From Myxococcaceae bacterium (GTDB lineage Bacteria; Myxococcota; Myxococcia; Myxococcales; Myxococcaceae), in NCBI GenBank assembly GCA_046155985.1, contig JBJXGM010000129.1, positions 2,773 to 66,772 of the forward strand: DNA of 64,000 bases. Reading direction: 5' to 3'. Shown in pieces: positions 1-48,393 of this stretch (its first letter is position 1; the number at the start of each line of letters is the position of its first letter). The translations under genes and the position numbers were made by a program. Below the pieces are notes generated by a model. The model was not told where the DNA came from. It did no database searches and saw nothing but the letters and a program-made list of their open reading frames with translations.

Positions 1-528
1 GACAGCCGACCGACGACGACCCGGTGCTGTCGGCCACTGACCCGCCTGCAGCTCAACAGTTCATTACAGATGATGAGGGGTAAAGTCGCCAGTTCCGGAA
101 CGTGCTGAGGATGCACCTGCTCGTTAAGGCACCATCGAAGAGCGCGTTTCCCCTCGTCTGCATCGATGAGCGTCCGGTACAGCTGCACGACGAAGGTGAG
201 GGAGCCAACGAGCGCGAAGCCTGGGCGGCCAGCACGACGCGATGCGGAATACAAACGAAGAGGCACCGCGAATGTGTTCGCTATTGTCGCCCCACGCCTC
301 GGTTTCCACCTGACGCACGCGACCAAGAACCGGAAGTCGCCGAGCTATGTCAGGGCGCTTCAACGAATCACGAAAGCGTTTCCTAAAGCCAAGAGAATCC
401 ATCTGGTTCAGGACAACCTGAGCAGCCACAGCGAGGCTGCTTGCATCCGAACACTGGGCCCGACCGAGGGCCGAAAGCTGTGGGCACGCTTCATCGTGCA
501 CTTTACGCCAAAGCACGGCAGTTGGCTC
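1..528 (+). pseudogene. IS630-family DDE transposase remnant with an in-frame stop, a frameshift and a 3' truncation
   Basis: Two frames carry IS630-type motifs: FPLVCIDERPVQL (frame of ORF 102..) and EYKRRGTANVF ... IHLVQDNLSSH ... HFTPKHGSWL (frame of ORF 166..). There is a TAA at 81-83 in the upstream frame. The frame switches near 190-200. Homology stops abruptly after GSWL (about 528), where intact family members continue with N-x-AEIE. Confidence 0.8.
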
Positions 529-860
529 GTTATCGCCCCCGTGCGCCCGCCTCCAACGACGTGGCCCCGGCTCGACCGCTGCGGCTCACCGCGTGACGTG
601 CGGGAAAGCCGCGGCTATTCCGCCTATGCGCCGTTGGGAAGTTGTGAAAGTCGCTCGAGGGAGAAGGGGCCCCGAGCGCCGTAGTTGGCGAGGCGCAAGA
701 GGCCTTTTCTGTCGTTTTGGTGGACGCGTGAATTGGCGTGAAACGAGAAGCCTTGGAGGAAGGCAGAGCGCCGGCCGTTGCGGGGAGGCGTCGTAACTTC
801 ACGCCGCCGTGGTCTGAGCGCCTGGTTCAGCGTACGGGTGACGCGGAAGAGTTGCCTTGC

Positions 861-1361: not shown

Positions 1362-1604
1362 TTACTCGCAGAGGAAAACGTCCGAGCAACCCACAGTGGG
1401 CCCGCAGCTGCAAGTGTATGGTACGTCCGTCTGCGCGGGGCAATCACAAGTGCCGCCATTGTTACAGCCAGCCCACGTGGAGTTTCCCGGGCAGCCACCC
1501 CAACGGCCTGCCGTGAGGTTGTTAGCCCCACCCTGTGCGGAGCTCAGGTCAGACAAGTTTTCGATAACGGTTTTCTTTAGCGACAGCTTTGCGCGCTTTT
1601 TCAT
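1362..1604 (-). CDS. lanA: class I lanthipeptide precursor peptide (80 aa) with a double-glycine leader
   Basis: The leader is MKKRAKLSLKKTVIENLSDLSSAQGG. The 54-aa core contains 8 Cys and 9 Ser/Thr (…GGCPGNSTWAGCNNGGTCDCPAQTDVPYTCSCGPTVGCSDVFLCE). AGGAG lies 4 nt before the ATG. The gene is divergent from lanC, and lanB and a C39-ABC exporter are in the same locus. Confidence 0.85.
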   Translation of the reverse strand: MKKRAKLSLKKTVIENLSDLSSAQGGANNLTAGRWGGCPGNSTWAGCNNGGTCDCPAQTDVPYTCSCGPTVGCSDVFLCE

Positions 1605-1649
1605 GTGGCTCCTGAACTTCGGTTGTGTGGTGAAGCGGGGTAGGTCAAC

Positions 1650-1665
1650 AGCAAGTTTCGCACCA
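1650..1665 (-). promoter_or_regulatory. sigma54 (-24/-12) promoter candidate upstream of lanA
   Basis: The minus strand reads TGGTGCGAAACTTGCT against the consensus TGGCACG-N4-TTGCW. The GG and GC dinucleotides are at exactly the canonical spacing and the TTGCT -12 element is intact. The site lies about 45 nt upstream of the lanA ATG (1604). Confidence 0.6.
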
Positions 1666-1758
1666 CCCAGCCTGCGTCTGGAACTGGGCGGCTTTCATAT
1701 GTGACGCAGGAGGACGTAGGCCGTACGTGCCGGTTTTTGGGCGGCGATCTGCCGAAGA

Positions 1759-3168
1759 GTGAGCAAGCGCTCCATTGTGTGCGATGGACTGGTTCGCAAA
1801 AGTTGCTTCGCCGCGAGACCCGGTCCATCACCCTTGATTGAGTCTGATTTCCCATCTTCTGCGTTGAGAGGAAGAGCCGTGGTGGACCGACCCGATTGGC
1901 AACCCATCCTCGAGGGCCAAGACGCCGAAAAGGCACAGCGAATCGTCGCCCAAGTGGTCCATGACAGAGACCCCGCCGATTCCATGGCACGACTGGACTC
2001 GTTTGCCGTTTTGCTAGACGCCTACCTCGCCAAAGTGCACTCCTCCGACGAGCGCGCAGACGCGACGTTTGCGCGACTTGAGCGCGTCATCGAACAAGCG
2101 TCGAGGCTTCGATCAAGTGCCCTGTATGGCGGACTCGCGGGCGTGGCGTGGGTGACGGCGCATGTCAATACGCTGCTCAGTGAATGGCTCGATACCGCCT
2201 CTGGCGAAGCTTCAGAGGCGTGGCCCGACGCGCTATTCATCCGGGAGGTTCGAAGCCTCCCTGAGCCCGTCCAGTATGATCTGATTTCGGGGCTGGTCGG
2301 GCTCGCGGTGTACGCGATTGAGCACCTGCCGGCGAAGGAGGCGGAGCAGCTTCTCGGGGGCGTCATCGATCGGCTGCTCGCCAGAAAAGCGGTTCGCATG
2401 CCACACGGCTCGACTTTTCTGACAGAACCTGAGCTGCTTCCGGCACACCAGCGTATTCACGCACCGTCGGGCAATTACAATCTCGGGGTCGCGCACGGCA
2501 TCCCCGCCGTGGTGGTGGTGCTCGCCCATGGGATTCGTCGCGGATACCGCGTCATTGAAGCGCGAGAGCTCGTCGACGCGTTATGGGACTGGATGGTCGC
2601 CCAGCAATGTTCGAGCGGGCCGGGCGCTCGTTTTCCAACGCACGTTGAGATTGACGGGCGTTCGAGCGGACCCGCTCGCGAAGCATGGTGCTACGGAGGA
2701 TTGGGACTTTCTGTCGCGCTGTTGCGCGCGGCGCAGCTGCTCGACGACACGTCCAAGGCGCACGCGGCGGTGGAATTCGCGAAACTCGAAGCCGAGCGGA
2801 GCATCGAGAGCAGCGACTCAAAGGATTGCGGGCTGTGTCACGGCGCGGCGGGGAATGCGCACCTGTTCAACAGGCTCTTCCAAGCGTCTGGAGATGAGAT
2901 TTTTCTTGATGCGGCGCACAGGTGGTTCAACGTGGTGCTTTCGGAACACGGCGTGCGCCCCGGCGTTGGGGGTTACCAGTTTTGGGCTCCGGGCGTCCGG
3001 GGGGGCGGCTGGCCCCCGGCGGGTTGGAGGAGCGACGCCACGTTTCTCGTGGGGTCTTCCGGGGTCGCGCTCGCGTTGCTTGGAGCGACCAGTTCCGTCG
3101 AGCCGAACTGGGATCGGCTTCTTGTTTCGGACCTCAAACGCGGAACCTCATTTCCGCCATTGATCTGA
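1759..3168 (+). CDS. lanC: LanC-like lanthionine cyclase
   Basis: LanC signature residues are present: NLGVAHGIPAVV (His base), AWCYGGLGL (WCxG Zn-Cys) and GLCHGAAGNAH (CHG Zn ligands). The exact start (GTG 1759) is uncertain. Confidence 0.9.
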   Translation: MSKRSIVCDGLVRKSCFAARPGPSPLIESDFPSSALRGRAVVDRPDWQPILEGQDAEKAQRIVAQVVHDRDPADSMARLDSFAVLLDAYLAKVHSSDERADATFARLERVIEQASRLRSSALYGGLAGVAWVTAHVNTLLSEWLDTASGEASEAWPDALFIREVRSLPEPVQYDLISGLVGLAVYAIEHLPAKEAEQLLGGVIDRLLARKAVRMPHGSTFLTEPELLPAHQRIHAPSGNYNLGVAHGIPAVVVVLAHGIRRGYRVIEARELVDALWDWMVAQQCSSGPGARFPTHVEIDGRSSGPAREAWCYGGLGLSVALLRAAQLLDDTSKAHAAVEFAKLEAERSIESSDSKDCGLCHGAAGNAHLFNRLFQASGDEIFLDAAHRWFNVVLSEHGVRPGVGGYQFWAPGVRGGGWPPAGWRSDATFLVGSSGVALALLGATSSVEPNWDRLLVSDLKRGTSFPPLI

Positions 3169-3278: not shown

Positions 3279-4250
3279 TCAGGTGCAGCCGCGTTGGCGT
3301 GCTGCTTCGATATCGTTCCGTGGCTCGGTAGCCAGCAATGTTCCTAAGACGAACGCCAGCGAGACGCCATGGACCAAAGTTCGTTCGTCGAGGATTCCTC
3401 TGGGACCCTGGAGCTTCACGTGGGCCTCAGCCTCGTGAGGGAAACTGATCTCTGCTCTTCCCCCGTCTCCCGTGGAAAGCTCAAATCGGCGTGGAACGAG
3501 TGTACGGTTAATCACGGTGAACTCGAGCTGGGCGTGGGAGCGTTTCTTGCCCTGTTTGATCTCGAAAGCGACCGGGGCGAAATGTGAAGCACCCAGGTTG
3601 TCATACCTGCTAAGCCGACGTGCGGTAATTGTTGCAAATGGGCCAGTGCCATCCACGATTGTCAGCGTCGCGTCGCAGCCGCTGGCTCGGAGCGTGGCCT
3701 TCGATGCGAGGGTCCCGTCCGGGTTGTAAAGGCTTCCAGTACTGGGTTTGTGTTCCTCGTGAGGGGTGACCAGCTGGTAAGTGCCCGACGCGTCGTTGCC
3801 CTGGGGGAGCACATCCAGCAGCCATTTTGGGGGATGAGTCTGACGGTTTCTTCCTGGGGGCTGCAGCACGCCGTTACCCAGCGCAAAGTGATGGCCGAGG
3901 ACAGGACCGGTGAAGGGGCTGAAACGTTCCTCTGGCACGGCGTCATCGAGTTGACCAAGCGTCGGTCGTTTGTGCGCCGGGCGAGTCCCCGTGAGCTGTG
4001 TAGGGTCCGGGTTCTGAGGTGTGGGCGCAACGGATACGGTCATTGAGTGCTGCGGCAAAGGCGTTCCTGCGACGGCAACCCCACTTTGTCCGGCCGCTTG
4101 AGCGACCGCAGCGGGTGTTGCTGGACCGAACATGCCGAGCCAAGCACTGAAAACGGCGGCACCAATAGCGCGCCCGACAGTGGCGAGCGGTGACCGCGGG
4201 TTGACTGAGACGCCAGTAGCAACCGAACGCGCAAGGGCAGAAGTGACCAT
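3279..4250 (-). CDS. secreted hypothetical protein (323 aa)
   Basis: There is an N-terminal signal-like hydrophobic stretch (AIGAAVFSAWLGMFGPATPAAVAQA), then a Pro-rich linker and a C-terminal beta-rich region. No family was recognised. Confidence 0.55.
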   Translation of the reverse strand: MVTSALARSVATGVSVNPRSPLATVGRAIGAAVFSAWLGMFGPATPAAVAQAAGQSGVAVAGTPLPQHSMTVSVAPTPQNPDPTQLTGTRPAHKRPTLGQLDDAVPEERFSPFTGPVLGHHFALGNGVLQPPGRNRQTHPPKWLLDVLPQGNDASGTYQLVTPHEEHKPSTGSLYNPDGTLASKATLRASGCDATLTIVDGTGPFATITARRLSRYDNLGASHFAPVAFEIKQGKKRSHAQLEFTVINRTLVPRRFELSTGDGGRAEISFPHEAEAHVKLQGPRGILDERTLVHGVSLAFVLGTLLATEPRNDIEAARQRGCT

Positions 4251-4784
4251 GGCAAATGTCTCCCTAAAGACTGCCTGAATTCTCGCGAGTTATCGGAGAA
4301 GGTTGCGTGGTTTCAGGCATGCCTAACCTCGGACCCAGACCTGATTGGTGATGGTGACGGTTGGTAGGGCGGGTCTCGAGGGAGCCCGGGCAGCCCCGAG
4401 CGCCGGCTCAAATTCGCACCTCAGGAAGAAAAACGAGCCCCAAGCCGCGCGCGGAGAGGACTTTTCTGATCCTCCCGCAGAAAACCTCCAAGCCGGTCTT
4501 CGTTTGGTCGCGGAGCCCGGCGGCCTGGAGGTGCCATAGACCTGAGTAATGACGGGCGAAAGAGATCGGCGCCGGGGCATCGCGCAGACGGATGTCGGTG
4601 ACGCCGATTTCGTCGTGCGCCCGTACCGTTGGTGCCGACCTGTTCGGCACGACCGTGGCTTGGCTGATCCCTCTCCTCGCGTGCGCAGACCTGCGGCTGG
4701 ACCGATTTTCCGCGAATTCAGGCTGTTAGTGTTCTGGCATTTACTCCATTTTACTCATGTGTGAATTGGAGTAGAGTCCATTTT

Positions 4785-5915
4785 ATGGACAGGTCGATTC
4801 AGCCCGTTTTGGAGCAGGTTCTGGCGTCGCAAAAGATGGTTTTTATCGCGGGGCCTCGGCAAGTTGGGAAAACAACCCTGGCGCTGTCGTTGTTGGGGCA
4901 GGGGGCAACCGAGTCCAACCCTGCGTATCTCAGCTGGGATGACCCCAGGGGTGCCGCGCGTCTCCGCCAAGCCCAGCTTCCCCCCAACGCACCACGGCTC
5001 GTGTTCGACGAAATCCACAAATACGCAAGGTGGAGAAACCTGCTCAAGGGGATTTTCGACACCGAAAAGTCCTTGCGGCAAATCATCGTCACCGGTTCGG
5101 CGCGCTTGGATTTCTATCGAAAAGGGGGCGACTCCTTGGTGGGGCGCTACCGCCTCTTCCGGCTGCACCCTTTTTCTCTACAAGAAATCGGTGGGAGCGC
5201 ACGCTCAGATCTCGCTGCTCTGTTGCGCTTTGGGGGCTTTCCGGAACCCTTTCTTCGGGCGAACGAGACAGAACATCGCATCTGGCAACGAGACCGACTT
5301 TCCCGTGTTGTTCGCGAGGATCTGCGCGACCTCGAACGTGTGCGCGAAATCAGTCTTGTCGAGCAGCTTGTCGATCTCTTGCCAGCTCGGGTGGGATCCC
5401 CCCTCTCCATCGCGAATCTTCGCGGGGACCTGGAGGTGGACCACAAGACAGTTCAGCGCTGGTTACAGATACTCGAGAACTTGTATGTGTGCTTCCGCAT
5501 TCCGCCGTTTGGCGCGCCTCGAATTCGCGCGGTGAAGAAAGAGCAGAAGCTGTACCTCTGGGATTGGTCGCAAGTGGAAGACCCCGGCCCACGTTTCGAA
5601 AACCTGGTCGCCAGCCAACTGCTCAAGTACTGCCATTTCCTCGAGGACACGCAGGGCGTGCGAATGGAGCTCCGCTTCCTGCGAGACACGGACAAGCGCG
5701 AAGTCGACTTCGTCGTTCTCAAGGACCGAAAGCCCCAATTCGCAGTCGAGTGCAAGAGTGGAGACCGAGAGGTTGGCTCTGCTGTGAAGTACTTTGCCGC
5801 GCGGACCGGCATCCCACGGTTTTTTCAGGTGCACCAGGGCGTTCGACACTTTGCACAGGGCGCTGTCACGGTTGTGCCGTTTGCGCGCTTTTGCGCCGAG
5901 ATGAAGATGCCGTAA
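4785..5915 (+). CDS. AAA+ ATPase of the AAA_14/DUF4143 type (COG1373-like)
   Basis: Walker A is GPRQVGKTTLA and Walker B-like is LVFDEIHKY, followed by IIVTGSARLD. The C-terminal part is typical of DUF4143 proteins. The ATG at 4785 is preferred over the GTG at 4761. The upstream region is AT-rich. Confidence 0.8.
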   Translation: MDRSIQPVLEQVLASQKMVFIAGPRQVGKTTLALSLLGQGATESNPAYLSWDDPRGAARLRQAQLPPNAPRLVFDEIHKYARWRNLLKGIFDTEKSLRQIIVTGSARLDFYRKGGDSLVGRYRLFRLHPFSLQEIGGSARSDLAALLRFGGFPEPFLRANETEHRIWQRDRLSRVVREDLRDLERVREISLVEQLVDLLPARVGSPLSIANLRGDLEVDHKTVQRWLQILENLYVCFRIPPFGAPRIRAVKKEQKLYLWDWSQVEDPGPRFENLVASQLLKYCHFLEDTQGVRMELRFLRDTDKREVDFVVLKDRKPQFAVECKSGDREVGSAVKYFAARTGIPRFFQVHQGVRHFAQGAVTVVPFARFCAEMKMP

Positions 5916-6050
5916 TGCGTAGAAACCTGGACCAGGGTCGCACAGGTCGATCACCACACGCGCATCGACACTGAAGCGACCGGTGTTTAGGGCATTGGCC
6001 GCAAGCAGGTGGAGATGCCTAGGATTCTCGTTCTCCGCGCAGCTTGACCT

Positions 6051-6079
6051 CCATATATATAGCATGCCATATATATGGC
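6051..6079. promoter_or_regulatory. AT-rich repeat/palindrome, a putative vapBC operator-promoter
   Basis: CCATATATAT occurs twice (6051-6060 and 6067-6076). The second copy sits inside the perfect palindrome GCCATATATATGGC (6066-6079), which abuts the vapB ATG (6080). TTGACC lies just upstream at 6045-6050. Confidence 0.5.
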
Positions 6080-6307
6080 ATGGCGCGTAAAACCACGCTG
6101 TACTTGGGGGACGACGAATCCACCCTCCTCAAGCAAGCGTCGGAGCAAGAAGGCTTATCCCAAGGCGTCATCATTACCCGGGCTCTTCGCAGTTACTTTC
6201 AATCGCGCTCGCGGAAAGCGCTGAGCGTTGGACTCGGACGAAGCGGGCGGCGCAATCTCAGCGAGCGTGCGGAGGCGTTGCTCAAAGGCCTTGGAGAGGA
6301 CGGGTGA
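6080..6307 (+). CDS. vapB: ribbon-helix-helix (CopG/VapB-type) antitoxin
   Basis: The N-terminus MARKTTLYLGDDESTLLKQASEQEGLSQGVIITRALRSYF is RHH-like. There is a 4-nt overlap with the downstream PIN gene. Confidence 0.8.
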   Translation: MARKTTLYLGDDESTLLKQASEQEGLSQGVIITRALRSYFQSRSRKALSVGLGRSGRRNLSERAEALLKGLGEDG

Positions 6308-6726
6308 TTGTTGTCGACACGAGCGGGCTCATTGCTCTGCTCGACGCCGACGACGCCCACCATGATGGCGTGCGCGAAGCTTTCGACGCTGCGGGAGACG
6401 CCTGGGTTCTACCGTGGGCGATCCTTCCGGAGGTGGACTACCTCGCGACCAAATACCTTGGACCCAAAGTCGCCCTCGCGTTCTTGCGTGACGTTGTGCG
6501 CGGCGTTTTTCGCGTGACCGGTTACGACGCCGACGACATGAAGCGCTCCGTCGGCCTTCAGCAAAAGTATGCGAGCCTGGAGCTCGGCCTTGTTGATTCG
6601 GTTGTCATGGCCCAGGCGATGCGCTTCAAGGCAAAGGCAATCGTCACGCTGGATAGAAGGCATTTTCGCGCCGTATCGTTCGGTGGCAGTCCCCCACCGC
6701 GGCTGATTCCCTTGGACAGTCCCTAG
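6304..6726 (+). CDS. vapC: PIN-domain ribonuclease toxin VapC
   Basis: The N-terminus MIVVDTSGLIALLDADDAHH carries the PIN acidic residues (D5, E at LPEVDY, D at LVDSVVM, D at TLDRRHF). Confidence 0.9.
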   Translation: MIVVDTSGLIALLDADDAHHDGVREAFDAAGDAWVLPWAILPEVDYLATKYLGPKVALAFLRDVVRGVFRVTGYDADDMKRSVGLQQKYASLELGLVDSVVMAQAMRFKAKAIVTLDRRHFRAVSFGGSPPPRLIPLDSP

Positions 6727-6967
6727 CGCGAGAAACACGGCCCCCGGCGGCGGGGGGCCGGGGGTGCGCTTGATCGTCCATCCAGACGTCGACATTTGTT
6801 GGGCTGCTGCCGAGCGGCACGAGCCTACGCAACATGATCGACCAATCGACCAGACGCCTCGGCACTGCGGCAAGTGGTTTGGACGCCCATGTGAGCTTGG
6901 GCTTATCCGCGATGGCGAATCCCATTCCCATCAGCCCCAGAAACGCCCGTCTTGCGAGGATCTTCAT
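6644..6967 (-). CDS. small ORF with a twin-arginine-like signal peptide, possibly a truncated remnant
   Basis: It starts MKILARRAFLGLMGMGFA, which fits the RRxFL Tat motif. Its ATG overlaps the PPTase stop (ATGA at 6964-6967). Its 3' end runs antisense into vapC, so the gene may be disrupted. Confidence 0.3.
   Translation of the reverse strand: MKILARRAFLGLMGMGFAIADKPKLTWASKPLAAVPRRLVDWSIMLRRLVPLGSSPTNVDVWMDDQAHPRPPAAGGRVSRARDCPRESAAVGDCHRTIRRENAFYPA
6738..6760. terminator. GC-rich hairpin downstream of vapC
   Basis: The stem is CGGCCCCC (6738-6745) paired with GGGGGCCG (6753-6760), with a 7-nt loop. There is no clear U-tract, so terminator function is uncertain. Confidence 0.3.
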
Positions 6968-7713
6968 CGCTCCCCCACGAGCCGGTACTCCGAGCAGCGG
7001 ACGGTAACTGGGGAGTGAGCCGGACGACGTATTGCCACCGCTGCGAGGTGTCTGTGCGATGGCGCGAGTTGGACAAACTGCCAGCTTTCCGGGGTGTCGT
7101 CGGAGGGTTGCTCGAAGGAGATTCGCGGTGCGTGTGGCGGCGCGAGGCGGAATGCGAAACGGGTGAGCGGTAGGGATAGGCCAACGCCTCTCGCCTTGAC
7201 GTAGGCCTCCTTGAGTGTCCAGTACTCAAAGAAGCGCCGGCGTTGGCGCGGGCCAGAGAGGCGGTTGAGATCGGCGACTTCCTCTGCCGTGAAGCACTGA
7301 TCAACAACGTCAGTTGGGGCGCTTCGCTGGGCGTACTCTTCAACGTCCACACCCACGTCGATGTCCATCGCCACCGCACACAGCGCCATTCCGTCGGTGT
7401 GCGACAGATTGAATCGCAGTTTCGGCCCGGCCTGGCCCGGCACCTCAGGCCGGCCGTGCTCGCCTCGATGGAAGACCCAATCCTGGGCCCTCACGGGCCC
7501 ATAGCGAGACAGCGTGAGCCGCAGCAGTGCATGAGACAGGAGGAACTCCCGGCGGTGTCGCTCTGCTCGGAAACCGCTGTGCCGCGCTCTTTCGTCCTCG
7601 TCGAGGAGCGTCCAGAGATACGTCAGGACATCAGGATGAATCGAGCGGTCTAGCCGAAGAAACCAGGCGTGCACCTCGCGCCCAGGCAAGGGAAGCGGTG
7701 GCGCAGGCATCAT
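6964..7713 (-). CDS. Sfp-type 4'-phosphopantetheinyl transferase
   Basis: Motifs FNLSHTDGMALCAVA, DVGVDVE and WTLKEAYVKARG are present. The gene is divergent from the megasynthase gene. Confidence 0.9.
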   Translation of the reverse strand: MMPAPPLPLPGREVHAWFLRLDRSIHPDVLTYLWTLLDEDERARHSGFRAERHRREFLLSHALLRLTLSRYGPVRAQDWVFHRGEHGRPEVPGQAGPKLRFNLSHTDGMALCAVAMDIDVGVDVEEYAQRSAPTDVVDQCFTAEEVADLNRLSGPRQRRRFFEYWTLKEAYVKARGVGLSLPLTRFAFRLAPPHAPRISFEQPSDDTPESWQFVQLAPSHRHLAAVAIRRPAHSPVTVRCSEYRLVGER

Positions 7714-8010
7714 CGCTAACGAATACTACTCCTGCACGGGTCGTCGCCCACCGCAAAACATACGCACGGGATGAGGGCGTCGCATCGACGTGGGTTGTTC
7801 GCACCTTGTGCGCCCCCCCGAGACCGACATCGACGCACCCAAGCCTCGCGCGGGCCACCCAAAGCGCGTGCTGGTCAGTTCACTCGCAGAAGAAGACGTC
7901 GGAGCAGCCCTGTCGTACCTTGCTTCTGTGGTTGCTGGATTTGGCCAGAGATCCGCCGAAAGCCGGGCAGGCCATGGGATGGGCGCGAGAGAGACGTAGA
8001 GGCGGAACCG

Positions 8011-29645: not shown

Positions 29646-33890
<4,245 letters not shown>

Positions 33891-44449: not shown

Positions 44450-44683
44450 AAAGACTCCCTGACGAGGCACTTGGGGCTTCATCGGATGCTTGGACCCTGG
44501 CCGTCGCAGAAAATTCAGGCTCACAAAATCCAGTCCATTCAAAGCTTTCCGCTACGGGTCACTTGGTTTGGACCAAGTCGCGCGCTGAGCCGACGCCATG
44601 GGGGATGCCTGATGTCTCGCAGGCTGGACGCGTGTCCGATGCGCGGGCCCGATAACCTGCTGTTCTCTCGAGGAAAGGCTGGG

Positions 44684-44699
44684 TGGCACAGGCGTTGCT
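44684..44699 (+). promoter_or_regulatory. sigma54 (-24/-12) promoter with a perfect core match
   Basis: TGGCACAGGCGTTGCT equals TGGCAC-N5-TTGCT. It lies 50 nt upstream of the ATG at 44749. Confidence 0.65.
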
Positions 44700-44748
44700 C
44701 TCGGGATCCAGTACCGGGAACTTCCTGCCATTCACAGCGAGTCTCAAA

Positions 44749-44868
44749 ATGTCAGTATCACTGCGTTATTCGTTCCTCGGGCTCGTCGTCCTCGTTGCTC
44801 CCGGCTGTGCGACCATCGTTAAGCGAGACGCTAGACGTAAGCGGGAGATACCAAGGCTTCGCCGGTAG
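44749..44868 (+). CDS. small (39 aa) putative lipoprotein with a basic tail
   Basis: The sequence is MSVSLRYSFLGLVVLVAPGCATIVKRDARRKREIPRLRR. It has a hydrophobic h-region and an APGC lipobox-like motif. It sits directly downstream of the sigma54 promoter. Confidence 0.4.
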   Translation: MSVSLRYSFLGLVVLVAPGCATIVKRDARRKREIPRLRR

Positions 44869-47388: not shown

Positions 47389-48393
47389 ATGTCGCTCGTC
47401 CCCCAAAATCTGATCGGCGAAAGCGACCCCATCGAAGGGGTGCGGCGGTGGCTGGAAAAGGCCGCAGCGCTTGACGCGCCAGTCGTGATTGAAGGCGAGT
47501 CCGGTACCGGCAAACTTTTGGCGACCAGACGCCTGCACCACCTGTCACCCCGCCAACAGGCACCTTGCGTCGTGGTGTATGGCGAGTCGCTCAACGCAGA
47601 GCAGCTCGAGCGCGCCATCTTGGCCGCGACCACGGGCGGTGTTGGCACCTTGGTCATTCGGCACATCGAGAAGCTCGCCAAAGAGCTTCAGCCCCGACTG
47701 ACGCTGCTCCTCGAAATGCGAGAGCGCCTGCGCGGCGTCGCCGGCGGGGTGCCCCTGCCGCGCGTGGTGGCGACAGCGGTCACGCCGCTGCGCGAAGCGG
47801 TTCGGCAGGGCCACCTTCGGGAGGACTTGTTCTTCCGATTGGCGGTGTTGGTGCTCGAGATGCCGCCCTTGCGGGAGCGACTCGAGGACTTGCCTGCGTT
47901 GGTGCGAGGGATATTGGCCCCGGGGGCGGGCGCGACGGCGGTCACCCTGACGCCACCGGCGTTGGAAAAGCTTCGGGCCCATGCTTGGCCGCAGAACGTT
48001 CGCGAACTTCAGGATGTTCTTGCGCACTTGCGCGGCGCCGGGGCGAACATCGTCGACGTCAGCGACTTGCCGGCCCTGTTCGGCGCGATGCCTCAGCCCA
48101 GCTTGGGCTCGGTAGCGCTCCGGGCCGCAGTCACAGGCGCTGACCCTTCCGTTGCTGCCGTCACGGCGCGTGAGAACCTGGCCCCGCTTCCGGTTTCCGA
48201 GCACCTGCTCTTCAAAGAGGCCAAAGAGAAGCTGCTGGCTGAATTTGAGAAGGAATACCTCAGACGCCTTCTCACCACCGTCAATGGCAGCATCACCCGC
48301 GCCGCCGAGCGCAGCGGCCTTCACCGAAAATCGATTGAACGCCTGGTGAAAAAGTACGCGTTGCGTCCGCGCCGCCGGCGAAAAACGAAGTAA
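47389..48393 (+). CDS. degenerate sigma54-activator-like AAA+/Fis-HTH regulator
   Basis: Walker A is GESGTGKLLATRRLH. The GAFTGA loop region is absent. Walker B DE is replaced (TLVIRHIEKL). Conserved features are REDLFFRL, PPLRERLEDL and NVRELQ. The C-terminal HTH reads GSITRAAERSGLHRKSIERLVKKY. Confidence 0.75.
   Translation: MSLVPQNLIGESDPIEGVRRWLEKAAALDAPVVIEGESGTGKLLATRRLHHLSPRQQAPCVVVYGESLNAEQLERAILAATTGGVGTLVIRHIEKLAKELQPRLTLLLEMRERLRGVAGGVPLPRVVATAVTPLREAVRQGHLREDLFFRLAVLVLEMPPLRERLEDLPALVRGILAPGAGATAVTLTPPALEKLRAHAWPQNVRELQDVLAHLRGAGANIVDVSDLPALFGAMPQPSLGSVALRAAVTGADPSVAAVTARENLAPLPVSEHLLFKEAKEKLLAEFEKEYLRRLLTTVNGSITRAAERSGLHRKSIERLVKKYALRPRRRRKTK

What the first reader, a model, noticed from the sequence alone, without database searches (positions are those of the whole stretch)
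1605..1760. Sigma54-type promoter in front of the precursor gene, matched by a sensor-less bEBP encoded at the end of the biosynthetic operon
What the sequence shows:
- On the minus strand at 1665-1650 the sequence TGGTGCGAAACTTGCT has the invariant GG and GC at canonical -24/-12 spacing and a perfect TTGCT.
- The site lies about 45 nt upstream of the lanA ATG. An AGGAG Shine-Dalgarno sequence sits between them.
- The gene at 22882-23823 encodes only the AAA+ sigma54-interaction module and a Fis-type HTH. It has no receiver, GAF or PAS input domain. It is translationally coupled to lanB.
- An 8-bp inverted repeat (CCTGCGTC at 1671-1678, GACGCAGG at 1703-1710) lies just upstream of the -24 element in the shared lanA/lanC intergenic region.

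Established knowledge: domain-less bEBPs such as PspF and HrpR/S are constitutively active and are restrained in trans by partner proteins.

Inference: precursor supply is gated by sigma54 and this bEBP, forming a positive loop with the modification and export operon. An unidentified anti-activator may exist. The neighbouring pseudokinase and the GAF-bearing adaptor are candidates.
Basis: partly seen in the sequence, partly recalled or inferred. Interest (0 to 1): 0.65.

Follow-up and report, generated by a model that had tools for sequence, protein, structure and literature searches.

The report
Sigma-54 promoter for lanthipeptide precursor
The small gene for a lanthipeptide antibiotic precursor very probably has a sigma-54 type promoter, a type that stays shut until an ATP-driven activator opens it. 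An activator with no sensor domain is encoded at the end of the same gene cluster, and similar promoters precede related precursor genes in four other bacteria.

Summary
The site TGGTGCGAAACTTGCT (1665-1650, minus strand) lies 45 nt before the lanA ATG.

- **Promoter score.** It scores poorly on a Salmonella-only matrix (3.9 bits, rank 48). On a matrix from 80 diverse validated sigma-54 promoters it ranks 2nd of 128,000 window positions (14.7 bits, the median of real promoters).
- **Within-genome support.** It shares an exact 11-mer, AGGCTGGGTGG, with the rank-1 site, and that 11-mer occurs nowhere else in the window.
- **Comparative support.** Across 164 related LanB loci plus the window, 7 of 97 GG-leader precursor genes carry such a site 20-80 nt upstream. 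The expectation was 0.05. The seven fall in five independent loci.
- **The activator.** The bEBP at 22882-23823 has no sensor domain and overlaps the lanB stop codon.

Three parts of the interpretation are not supported:
- The 8-bp inverted repeat is no better than chance and is badly placed for an enhancer.
- Nothing indicates a positive loop. The layout reads as feed-forward.
- The GAF protein is a conserved LanT partner in loci that have no bEBP.

The pairing of this bEBP with this promoter rests on co-location only. This is a new member of a known kind, of moderate interest.

The parts
1648..1665 (-). Sigma-54 (-24/-12) promoter core, TGGTGCGAAACTTGCTGT. GG at 1664-1663, GC at 1652-1651.
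   Evidence: Sequence. 14.7 bits and rank 2 of 128,000 positions on the matrix from 80 diverse promoters. 3.9 bits and rank 48 on the Salmonella-only matrix.
1663..1673 (-). AGGCTGGGTGG, an 8-nt extension upstream of the -24 TGG. It is identical at the other top-ranked site (44676-44686).
   Evidence: This exact 11-mer occurs only at these two places in the window. The flanks are otherwise unrelated.
1638..1641 (-). Predicted transcription start, about 11-13 nt downstream of the -12 C, giving a leader of about 35 nt. Inferred, not shown.
   Evidence: Inferred from the standard -24/-12 geometry. No transcript data are available.
1609..1613 (-). AGGAG ribosome-binding site, 4 nt before the ATG.
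   Evidence: Sequence.
1362..1604 (-). lanA, an 80-aa class I lanthipeptide precursor. The leader MKKRAKLSLKKTVIENLSDLSSAQGG ends in a double glycine. The core is rich in Cys, Ser and Thr.
   Evidence: ORF. Sub-threshold match to NCBIfam lant_leader_L1a, 15.3 bits against a cut-off of 22. The leader is 44% identical to the L141 precursor leader, E = 3e-4. The gene is divergent from lanC.
1882..3168 (+). lanC cyclase, divergent from lanA. The mechanical ORF starts at 1759; the database gene call starts at 1882.
   Evidence: Pfam LANC_like, 6e-32. The window's own protein P0001 is 428 aa.
1671..1710 (.). 8-bp inverted repeat CCTGCGTC-N24-GACGCAGG. Present, but not distinguishable from chance.
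7771..15813 (+). First gene of the long operon: a megasynthase with the domain order AMP-binding (fatty acyl ligase-like), ACP, KS, AT, KR, ACP, condensation.
   Evidence: Pfam.
15731..17440 (+). Protein with a GAF domain, one transmembrane segment and a C-terminal domain. It is a conserved neighbour of LanT.
   Evidence: Pfam GAF. Sequence, and adjacency to LanT in 22 related loci.
17421..19640 (+). LanT, an ABC exporter with a C39 peptidase domain that cleaves double-glycine leaders.
   Evidence: Pfam Peptidase_C39, ABC_membrane and ABC_tran.
19637..22885 (+). LanB dehydratase.
   Evidence: Pfam Lant_dehydr_N, 6e-160, and Lant_dehydr_C.
22882..23823 (+). Sensor-less bEBP, 313 aa: AAA+ sigma-54 interaction domain, lid and Fis-type HTH. 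Walker A is GETGTGKE, Walker B is LFIDEIG, and the L1 loop is EAFTGA. Its ATG overlaps the lanB stop codon.
23981..25495 (-). Kinase-like protein with a PEGA domain, convergent with the operon. HRD reads HGN and there is no DFG, so it is a probable pseudokinase. No link to the bEBP has been shown.
   Evidence: Pfam Pkinase, weak at 32.9 bits, plus PEGA. Sequence.
44684..44701 (+). The other top sigma-54 site, TGGCACAGGCGTTGCTCT. It lies 49 nt (counted from the end of the 16-nt core) before the ATG (44749) of a 39-aa ORF that resembles a lipoprotein. It serves as a within-genome comparator.
   Evidence: 17.0 bits, rank 1. Context.

Best explanation
lanA is transcribed from a sigma-54-dependent -24/-12 promoter at 1665-1648 on the minus strand. 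The predicted start is near 1640, which gives a leader of about 35 nt carrying an AGGAG ribosome-binding site. Sigma-54 RNA polymerase binds such a promoter but cannot open it without ATP hydrolysis by a bEBP.

The most likely activator is the 313-aa bEBP encoded as the last gene of the PKS-GAF/LanT-LanB operon, which is translationally coupled to lanB. It has no sensory domain. Its activity should therefore follow its abundance, and so the transcription of the modification and export operon, unless an unidentified partner restrains it.

The result is feed-forward ordering: the precursor peptide is made only once the dehydratase, the exporter/protease and the acyl-chain machinery are being made.

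**Shown:** the motif, its score, position and orientation; the recurrence of such promoters before homologous precursor genes; and the bEBP architecture and its coupling to lanB.

**Inferred:** the transcription start, that this bEBP serves this promoter, where it binds, and that it is constitutively active.
For: - **Broad-matrix score.** On the matrix from 80 diverse validated promoters (sequences, matrix built), the site scores 14.7 bits. That is rank 2 of 128,000 positions and equals the leave-one-out median of the training set. Random windows give 0.83 sites that score as high.
- **It is the only strong intergenic candidate within the cluster.** The only other is a 12.4-bit site at 4645-4662, before the DUF4143 ATPase gene. 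The sigma-70 scan found no match in 1100-2100, and there is no Rfam element in 1200-2100.
- **Shared 11-mer.** The rank-1 and rank-2 sites share the exact 11-mer AGGCTGGGTGG, which occurs nowhere else in the window. Both lie 45-49 nt before a small ORF.
- **Recurrence.** Across the window plus 164 LanB-related loci (2.54 Mb), 7 of 97 GG-leader precursor genes have a site of at least 13.5 bits 20-80 nt upstream on the coding strand. The expectation is 0.05. The opposite strand gives 0 of 97, and the starts of ORFs of at least 200 aa give 3 of 1913. The cases are the window, L010 (Acidobacteriota), L043 (Kofleriaceae), L132 and L141.
- **Paralogue footprint.** In L010 the flanks of the paralogous promoters have diverged, while TGGCC[CT]G.CGATTGCTTT is kept.
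- **The bEBP looks competent.** The Sigma54_activat match scores 215 bits and starts at residue 1. Walker A, Walker B, the Arg fingers and sensor II are present, and so is HTH_8. The maximal ORF is 313 aa and overlaps lanB as ATGA.
- **Precedent.** Sigma-54 and bEBPs directly control natural-product genes in Myxococcus xanthus (PMC7910581). bEBPs without a regulatory domain, PspF and HrpR/S, are known (PMC7057263).
Against: - **Deviation at the -24 element.** The site reads TGGTG where the consensus is TGGCA. The A that is replaced by G is described as a base-specific sigma-54 contact (PMC3844500). On a Salmonella-only matrix the site scores 3.9 bits, below every validated Salmonella site.
- **Crude pattern counts are not above chance**.
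- **The bEBP has no orthologue.** The best hit is a generic NtrC-family protein at 48% identity, so the pairing cannot be tested by co-conservation.
- **A local bEBP is not needed elsewhere.** The four other loci with sigma-54-type precursor promoters have no bEBP within 10 kb. The likely phylum carries dozens of bEBPs per genome (supplementary table seen).
- **Unusual contact loop.** The L1 loop is EAFTGA, unique among the 120 best homologues. Its effect on activation is unknown.
- **No convincing enhancer was found**.
- **rpoN is not in the window**, and the rest of the genome is not available.
- **Other relatives use a different promoter type.** In L003 the precursor genes have clear TTGACA-N17-TAGCTT sigma-70-type promoters.
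Confidence: 0.55

Rival explanations
1. The site is a real sigma-54 promoter, but it is driven by a different, signal-sensing bEBP encoded elsewhere in the genome. The cluster's bEBP would then regulate another target or be a degenerate remnant.
For: - L010, L043, L132 and L141 have sigma-54-type precursor promoters with no bEBP within 10 kb.
- Only 5 of 164 LanB loci have any bEBP nearby.
- The L1 loop EAFTGA is unique among 120 homologues.
- The bEBP gene lies 21 kb from the promoter.
- The lanA site and the 44684 site share an extended motif, which suggests a common genome-wide promoter class and not a private pair.
Against: - The bEBP is translationally coupled to lanB inside the same cluster.
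- The lanA site is the only strong intergenic sigma-54 candidate next to a recognised biosynthetic gene.
- Every catalytic AAA+ motif and the HTH are intact.
Confidence: 0.25
2. The -24/-12 match is a chance occurrence in 61% G+C DNA. lanA would then be transcribed from an unrecognised sigma-70 or ECF-type promoter, or from a promoter inside lanC.
For: - Pattern counts are at or below chance.
- The site scores 3.9 bits, rank 48, on the Salmonella matrix.
- Both deviating bases fall in the -24 element.
- A Salmonella-type site, TGGCATGCGAACCGCT, lies at 2403-2386 on the same strand inside lanC.
- Relatives in L003 use sigma-70-type promoters.
Against: - The site ranks 2 of 128,000 positions on the diverse matrix.
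- The chance of such a site falling in the 60-nt zone before lanA is about 4e-4 (0.83 sites per 128,000 positions).
- The 8-nt extension is identical to that of the rank-1 site. The chance of that is about 2e-5 from base composition (my arithmetic).
- There is more than 40-fold enrichment of such sites before homologous precursor genes, with clean strand and gene-class controls.
- No sigma-70 consensus match was found.
Confidence: 0.12
3. One reading: a sigma-54/bEBP positive feedback loop with the modification operon. The 8-bp inverted repeat would be the enhancer, and the GAF protein or the pseudokinase would be the anti-activator.
For: - Sensor-less bEBPs such as PspF and HrpR/S are held in check in trans by PspA and HrpV (PMC7057263).
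- The kinase-like neighbour does look catalytically dead.
Against: - No sigma-54 site precedes the operon that contains the bEBP, or lanC.
- The inverted repeat is at chance level and is centred near -51, abutting the -24 element.
- The GAF protein is membrane-anchored and always sits beside LanT in 22 loci that have no bEBP.
- No PspA-like domain was found in the ORFs scanned.
Confidence: 0.08

Closest known systems
PspF and the pspA promoter (Escherichia coli, Salmonella)
   Same: The bEBP consists only of an AAA+ sigma-54 interaction domain and a C-terminal HTH, with no N-terminal sensor. It is encoded beside the system it controls. The query aligns to PspF structures from its second residue and to NCBIfam phageshock_pspF from residue 1. 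The target is a -24/-12 promoter.
   Different: The match is far below the PspF equivalog cut-off (265 bits against 443), so this is not a PspF orthologue. No PspA-like inhibitor was found. The target is an antibiotic precursor, not a membrane-stress operon. The gene is the last in a biosynthetic operon, not divergent from its target. The L1 loop is EAFTGA.
HrpR/HrpS and the hrpL promoter (Pseudomonas syringae)
   Same: Sensor-less bEBPs whose output is set by their expression level and by a trans-acting inhibitor, HrpV (PMC7057263).
   Different: HrpR and HrpS act as a hetero-hexamer of two paralogues. Here there is a single complete bEBP. The second EBP-like gene, at 47389-48393, lacks GAFTGA and the Walker B acidic residues. 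No HrpV-like gene was found.
Nla28-dependent sigma-54 promoters in Myxococcus xanthus natural-product clusters (PMC7910581)
   Same: Sigma-54 together with a bEBP directly controls secondary-metabolite genes in what is probably the same phylum. The promoter consensus used there is TGGCACG-N4-TTGC(T/A).
   Different: Those targets are PKS and NRPS genes, and the promoters are mostly intragenic. Nla28 is a response-regulator bEBP encoded outside the clusters. Here the target is a ribosomal precursor peptide, the promoter is intergenic, and the bEBP is sensor-less and inside the cluster.
LanR/LanK two-component control of lanA promoters, as for nisin and subtilin (from my own knowledge, not checked here)
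   Same: A dedicated regulator encoded in the cluster controls transcription of the precursor gene of a class I lanthipeptide.
   Different: Those systems use OmpR-type response regulators at sigma-70 promoters and sense the mature peptide. Here there is no kinase/receiver pair, and the promoter type is sigma-54.

Membership tests
Sigma-54-dependent (-24/-12) promoter | Invariant GG and GC dinucleotides separated by 10 nt | tested here: met
   GG at 1664-1663 and GC at 1652-1651 on the minus strand.
Sigma-54-dependent (-24/-12) promoter | Overall match to validated promoters, measured by position weight matrix | tested here: inconclusive
   On the matrix from 80 diverse promoters the site scores 14.7 bits, the median of the training set, and ranks 2 in the window. 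On the matrix from 29 Salmonella sites it scores 3.9 bits, below all training sites, because TGGTG replaces TGGCA.
Sigma-54-dependent (-24/-12) promoter | Intergenic, in the correct orientation, at a plausible distance from a start codon | tested here: met
   45 nt from the 16-nt core to the ATG, with an AGGAG ribosome-binding site between them. The spacing is similar (30-56 nt) at seven analogous sites.
Sigma-54-dependent (-24/-12) promoter | Recurrence or conservation before homologous genes | tested here: met
   7 of 97 homologous precursor genes carry such a site, against 0.05 expected, in five independent loci. These are analogues, not orthologues. No close relative of this genome exists in the collections searched.
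Sigma-54-dependent (-24/-12) promoter | Transcription start about 12 nt downstream of the GC, and dependence on rpoN and a bEBP | not testable with these tools
   There are no transcript data. rpoN is not among the window ORFs scanned.
Bacterial enhancer-binding protein (sigma-54 activator) | AAA+ sigma-54 interaction domain with Walker A, Walker B, Arg fingers and sensor II | tested here: met
   PF00158 at 7e-64 over residues 1-167. GETGTGKE, LFIDEIG, FRQDLLFRI and GNVRELKH are present.
Bacterial enhancer-binding protein (sigma-54 activator) | GAFTGA loop that contacts sigma-54 | tested here: inconclusive
   The loop reads EAFTGA. The F and T are kept, but the first G is E. No other protein among the 120 best homologues has this.
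Bacterial enhancer-binding protein (sigma-54 activator) | C-terminal DNA-binding HTH | tested here: met
   PF02954 HTH_8 at residues 270-310, 7e-10.
Sensor-less bEBP controlled in trans (PspF, HrpR/S type) | No N-terminal regulatory domain | tested here: met
   The ORF cannot extend upstream of 22882. The AAA+ domain starts at residue 1.
Sensor-less bEBP controlled in trans (PspF, HrpR/S type) | A partner inhibitor (PspA-like or HrpV-like) encoded nearby | tested here: not met
   No such domain was found in the 38 window ORFs scanned against Pfam. The distribution of the GAF protein argues against that role. A new kind of inhibitor is not excluded.
Enhancer (upstream activating sequence) for a bEBP | A dyad or repeated site, above chance, typically 100-150 bp upstream | tested here: not met
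A word found after the fact, CGCAGAARA, lies 169-198 nt upstream of three sigma-54-like sites. It is unproven.
Class I lanthipeptide cluster with a double-glycine leader precursor | LanB, LanC, a LanT with a C39 peptidase domain, and a precursor with an L1a-type leader ending in GG | tested here: met
   LanB, LanC and LanT by Pfam. The precursor leader matches NF038153 below threshold, at 15.3 bits against a cut-off of 22. It is 44% identical to an above-threshold member over 27 residues.

The most novel reading that the evidence does not exclude
Sigma-54 gating of the precursor gene is a recurrent strategy, not reported in the literature I searched, in one clade of Gram-negative-type class I lanthipeptide clusters. 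It was seen in Acidobacteriota, in Kofleriaceae (Myxococcota) and in unassigned soil lineages.

In this genome the strategy is hard-wired. A sensor-less bEBP is the last cistron of the modification and export operon. It would act as a timer, releasing the precursor only after the machinery exists.

That machinery includes a fatty-acyl-ligase/PKS/condensation megasynthase. It could make an N-acylated class I lanthipeptide.
Probability: 0.35. Interest if true: 0.65.

Novelty: new member of a known kind. Interest (0 to 1): 0.45.

Why it matters
**For producing the compound.** If lanA needs sigma-54 and a specific bEBP, the cluster would probably stay silent in hosts that lack rpoN (my inference). 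Streptomyces and other Actinomycetota lack it (PMC12316311). Expression would need co-supply of the activator or replacement of the promoter. That is practical information for anyone trying to produce this compound or its relatives from metagenomic DNA.

**For annotation.** About 7% of GG-leader precursor genes in this LanB clade carry a -24/-12 promoter. This gives a simple rule for finding precursor genes and for predicting silent clusters. It also extends the link between sigma-54 and natural products from PKS/NRPS genes in Myxococcus to ribosomal peptides in several phyla.

**For regulation.** A bEBP with no sensor, translated from the end of the enzyme operon, is a tidy example of 'machinery first, substrate second' control. 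It could be tested directly.

Tried and rejected
- **Homologues of LanA.** The word-based search found none.
- **Source contig of the bEBP.** The exact look-up was not on record under that call. The protein later appeared as a singleton from a 70,578-bp NCBI contig.
- **Orthologues for phylogenetic footprinting.** None exist. LanC relatives reach at most 48% identity, LanB at most 50%, and the bEBP 48% to generic NtrC-family proteins. DnaN, IleRS and RecF are singletons at 90% identity. I used analogous clusters instead.
- **Crude IUPAC pattern counts.** They cannot separate the site from chance.
- **Salmonella-only matrix.** It ranks the site 48th. I kept this as evidence against the promoter, but judged it too lineage-specific. 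In the diverse set, position 4 is T in 11 of 80 promoters and position 5 is G in 10 of 80.
- **The inverted repeat as an enhancer.** Rejected on statistics and on position.
- **Sigma-70 promoter or known RNA element in the intergenic region.** None found. The 5' leader has no unusual fold, z = 0.41.
- **A sigma-54 site before the L020 precursor array, beside its own sensor-less bEBP.** No canonical site. The best is CGGCACGCGTCCTGATAA, which has GA in place of GC and lies 220 nt upstream.
- **A shared enhancer word among the upstream regions of the three best intergenic sites.** Only the CGCAGAARA word, found after the fact, and no consistent dyad.
- **Taxon assignment.** Not possible directly. 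Myxococcota is inferred from the best bEBP hit (Kofleriaceae), from Haliangiales being among the best LanB hits, and from the PEGA-domain pseudokinase.
- **Two reviews on GAFTGA variants.** PMC3429621 and PMC2764435 are not held.
- **Literature on sigma-54 and lanthipeptides.** Searches found no report of a sigma-54-dependent lanthipeptide promoter. The library is open-access only, so this is weak evidence of absence.
Full report
**1. The observation**

On the minus strand the window reads ...cagacgcaggctgggTGGTGCGAAACTTGCTgttgacctaccccgcttcaccacacaaccgaagttcAGGAGccacATG.
- The 16-mer occupies 1665-1650, with GG at 1664-1663 and GC at 1652-1651 (GG-N10-GC).
- 45 nt separate it from the ATG at 1604. 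The ORF there is 80 aa (1604..1362): MKKRAKLSLKKTVIENLSDLSSAQGG followed by a core rich in Cys, Ser and Thr.
- The divergent lanC ORF starts mechanically at 1759. The database gene call is 428 aa, so lanC starts at GTG 1882 and the shared intergenic region is 1605-1881.
- The inverted repeat CCTGCGTC (1671-1678) / GACGCAGG (1703-1710) is exact.
- The gene at 22882-23823 encodes 313 aa. Pfam Sigma54_activat matches from residue 1, followed by AAA_lid_14 and HTH_8 and nothing else. Solved bEBP central domains align from the query's first residue.
- Its ATG overlaps the lanB stop codon as ATGA.

**2. The cluster**

| Coordinates | Strand | Gene |
|---|---|---|
| 1362-1604 | - | lanA |
| 1882-3168 | + | lanC |
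| 3279-4250 | - | unknown |
| 4761-5915 | + | AAA_14/DUF4143 ATPase |
| 6964-7713 | - | phosphopantetheinyl transferase |
| 7771-15813 | + | megasynthase: AMP-binding, ACP, KS, AT, KR, ACP, condensation |
| 15731-17440 | + | GAF protein with a transmembrane segment |
| 17421-19640 | + | LanT (C39 peptidase plus ABC exporter) |
| 19637-22885 | + | LanB |
| 22882-23823 | + | bEBP |
| 23981-25495 | - | kinase-like protein with PEGA domain, convergent |

The five genes from 7771 to 23823 abut or overlap, so they form one tight plus-strand operon. dnaN, recF and gyrB follow.

**3. Is the motif more than chance?**

Simple patterns say no. TGG-N8-TTGC occurs 7 times against 12.5 expected. TGGCACG-N4-TTGCW with up to 2 mismatches occurs 9 times against 14.6 expected.

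*Salmonella matrix.* I built a matrix from the 29 intergenic Salmonella sigma-54 sites listed in PMC3844500. It gives the site 3.9 bits, rank 48. Every training site scores at least 16.8. The reason is TGGTG in place of TGGCA. That paper describes the A as a base-specific contact of sigma-54.

*Diverse matrix.* I then took 88 distinct promoters of the Barrios compilation, as listed in the S2 Table of PMC12316311. Eighty of them have GG-N10-GC. Among these, position 4 is T in 11 and position 5 is G in 10. On this matrix:
- The site scores 14.7 bits, rank 2 of 128,000 strand positions.
- That equals the leave-one-out median of the training promoters.
- First-order Markov random windows contain 0.83 sites that score as high.

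*Chance of the position.* The chance of such a site landing in a 60-nt zone before lanA on the correct strand is therefore about 4e-4.

So the score depends on which matrix is trusted, and I report both.

**4. Within-genome support**

The rank-1 site is TGGCACAGGCGTTGCTCT at 44684-44701 on the plus strand. It is also intergenic. It lies 49 nt, counted from the end of its 16-nt core, before the ATG of a 39-aa ORF that resembles a lipoprotein.

The two top sites share the exact 11-mer AGGCTGGGTGG, which is 8 further bases upstream of the TGG. This 11-mer occurs nowhere else in the window and in none of the 164 fetched loci. Their flanks are otherwise unrelated. By base composition, 8 identical extra bases have a probability of about 2e-5 (my arithmetic). 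This argues that both belong to one promoter class of this genome.

**5. Comparative support**

No orthologous genome exists:
- LanA has no word-level homologue.
- LanC relatives reach at most 48% identity.
- The bEBP's best hit is a generic NtrC-family protein at 48%.
- Housekeeping proteins are singletons at 90% identity.

I therefore collected analogous clusters: 4 loci through LanC relatives, and 80 + 80 loci through a LanB alignment in genomes and metagenomes.

In these 164 loci plus the window (2.54 Mb) there are 45 sites of at least 13.5 bits. Seven of 97 candidate GG-leader precursor genes have one 20-80 nt upstream on the coding strand, against 0.05 expected from the background density. 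Two controls are clean: the opposite strand of the same zones gives 0 of 97, and the starts of ORFs of at least 200 aa give 3 of 1913.

The cases:

| Locus | Source | Site(s) |
|---|---|---|
| window | this genome | TGGTGCGAAACTTGCTGT |
| L010 | Acidobacteriota MAG | TGGCCCGCCGATTGCTTT, TGGCCTGACGATTGCTTT, and a third site, TGGTCCTGCCCTTGCTCT, not among the seven counted |
| L043 | Kofleriaceae MAG | TGGCGCGACCCTTGCTCG, TGGCGTGACCCTTGCTCG (tandem duplicates) |
| L132 | soil metagenome | TGGCACGCTTTTGGCTTC |
| L141 | soil metagenome | TGGCCCACCGGCTGCAAT |

- The distance from the 18-mer to the start codon is 30-56 nt in all of them.
- None of the L010, L043 and L141 sites has A at position 5; L132 reads TGGCAC. 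So most of these sites share the window's deviation at position 5.
- In L010 the flanks of the paralogous promoters have diverged while the -24 and -12 elements are kept.
- The L043 and L141 precursors pass the NCBIfam lant_leader_L1a cut-off. The window's LanA is below it, at 15.3 bits against 22. Its leader aligns to the L141 leader at 44% identity over 27 residues.
- Not all relatives use sigma-54. The L003 precursor genes have TTGACA-N17-TAGCTT promoters.

**6. The bEBP and its link to the promoter**

*What looks normal.* The protein has Walker A (GETGTGKE), Walker B (LFIDEIG), the Arg-finger region and sensor II (GNVRELKH), together with an HTH.

*What is unusual.* Its sigma-54 contact loop is EAFTGA. 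Among the 120 best homologues, 80 have GAFTGA, a few have GAYTGA, GSFTGA or RAFTGA, and none but the query has E.

*How rare a nearby bEBP is.* A bEBP close to LanB is uncommon: 5 of 164 loci, roughly what chance would give in bEBP-rich phyla.
- Only L020, a Chthoniobacteraceae MAG, resembles the window. It has a 333-aa sensor-less bEBP with GAFTGA, divergent from an array of four precursor genes. No canonical -24/-12 site precedes those genes.
- The L130 bEBP has a long N-terminal region that looks FHA-like by eye and lies 2 kb from LanB.
- The four other loci with sigma-54-type precursor promoters show no bEBP within 10 kb.

The pairing of this bEBP with this promoter therefore rests on co-location in one cluster and on the absence of any other good sigma-54 site next to a biosynthetic gene.

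**7. What is not supported**

- **The inverted repeat.** It is not above chance: 13.5% of random 277-nt regions have one, the real sequence carries 0.4 per 277 nt, and the half-site is not enriched. It is centred at about -51, with its proximal arm 5 nt from the TGG. Enhancers typically lie 100-150 bp upstream (PMC7057263).
- **A positive loop.** No sigma-54 site precedes lanC or the PKS operon. An 11.6-bit site inside lanT, 260 nt before lanB, is only a weak candidate. The arrangement reads as feed-forward.
- **The GAF protein as anti-activator.** It has a transmembrane segment and a C-terminal domain, and it sits beside LanT in 22 related loci, none of which has a bEBP. It is better explained as a transporter partner.
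- **The pseudokinase as anti-activator.** The kinase-like neighbour lacks the catalytic Asp (HGN in place of HRD) and lacks DFG, so 'pseudokinase' is fair. Nothing links it to the bEBP.
- **A known inhibitor.** No PspA-like or HrpV-like domain was found in the ORFs scanned.

**8. Mechanism proposed**

Sigma-54 holoenzyme sits in a closed complex on 1665-1648. The bEBP is produced in proportion to the biosynthetic operon. It oligomerises on an enhancer that has not been mapped, and it opens the promoter by ATP hydrolysis. lanA mRNA, with a leader of about 35 nt and an AGGAG ribosome-binding site, is then translated.

The steps shown and the steps inferred are listed under the best explanation. 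I put the promoter itself at about 0.8, the specific pairing with this bEBP at about 0.55 to 0.6, and the whole statement at 0.55.

**9. Comparison and novelty**

- The promoter type and the sensor-less bEBP type are both known (PspF, HrpR/S; PMC7057263).
- Sigma-54 control of natural-product genes is established for PKS and NRPS loci of M. xanthus through Nla28 (PMC7910581).
- I found no report of a sigma-54 promoter before a lanthipeptide precursor gene, but the library searched is open-access only.

This is therefore a new member of a known kind. The recurrence across phyla and the placement of the activator inside the operon are its interesting features.

Noticed in passing
window 6964-23823: The LanT-LanB operon begins with a 2680-aa megasynthase: fatty-acyl-AMP-ligase-like domain, ACP, KS, AT, KR, ACP and a condensation domain. 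A phosphopantetheinyl transferase is encoded next door. This suggests a class I lanthipeptide that is N-acylated with a polyketide or fatty chain. Only 1 of 164 LanB-related loci gave even a weak PKS hit, so the combination is rare.
   Followed up: partly
window 44676-44868: The best sigma-54 site of the window, TGGCACAGGCGTTGCTCT, lies 49 nt (counted from the end of its 16-nt core) before a 39-aa ORF, MSVSLRYSFLGLVVLVAPGC..., that resembles a small lipoprotein. It shares the exact 11-mer AGGCTGGGTGG with the lanA promoter.
   Followed up: partly
window 47389-48393: A second EBP-like gene with no sensor domain (334 aa, with HTH_8). It lacks the GAFTGA loop and the Walker B acidic residues, so it is probably not a sigma-54 activator.
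   Followed up: partly
window 1855-1863, 4476-4484, 44505-44513, 7885-7893: The word CGCAGAARA occurs four times in the window. Three copies lie 169-198 nt upstream, in the same orientation, of the three best intergenic sigma-54-like sites (lanA, 4645, 44684). The fourth lies just inside the PKS gene. It was found after the fact, so it is only a candidate enhancer word.
   Followed up: partly
window 15731-17440 and 22 related loci: A protein with a GAF domain, one transmembrane segment and a C-terminal domain is always encoded beside the C39-ABC exporter LanT in this lanthipeptide clade. Its role is unknown. It may be an accessory or gating subunit of the exporter.
   Followed up: partly
L020 3861-6725: A Chthoniobacteraceae MAG has a 333-aa sensor-less bEBP (with GAFTGA) divergent from four tandem precursor genes. 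Two of the precursors carry a conserved C-terminal extension of about 90 aa. No canonical -24/-12 site precedes them.
   Followed up: partly
L010 3171-13345: In an Acidobacteriota MAG, several units of a precursor followed by LanC (or LanB) each have their own strong -24/-12 site. A degenerate copy lies before a fourth precursor gene at 6775.
   Followed up: partly
window 29733-33890: gyrB is interrupted by an intein that carries a LAGLIDADG endonuclease domain.
   Followed up: no
window 2386-2403 (-), 19360-19377 (+), 4645-4662 (+): Weaker sigma-54-like sites. One lies antisense inside lanC and points toward lanA. One lies inside lanT, 260 nt before lanB and the bEBP. One lies 99 nt before the AAA_14/DUF4143 ATPase gene.
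   Followed up: no
window 166-684 and 6065-6080: A DDE-family transposase fragment lies just beyond lanA. A perfect palindrome, TGCCATATATATGGCA, lies in the 5916-6408 intergenic region.
   Followed up: no
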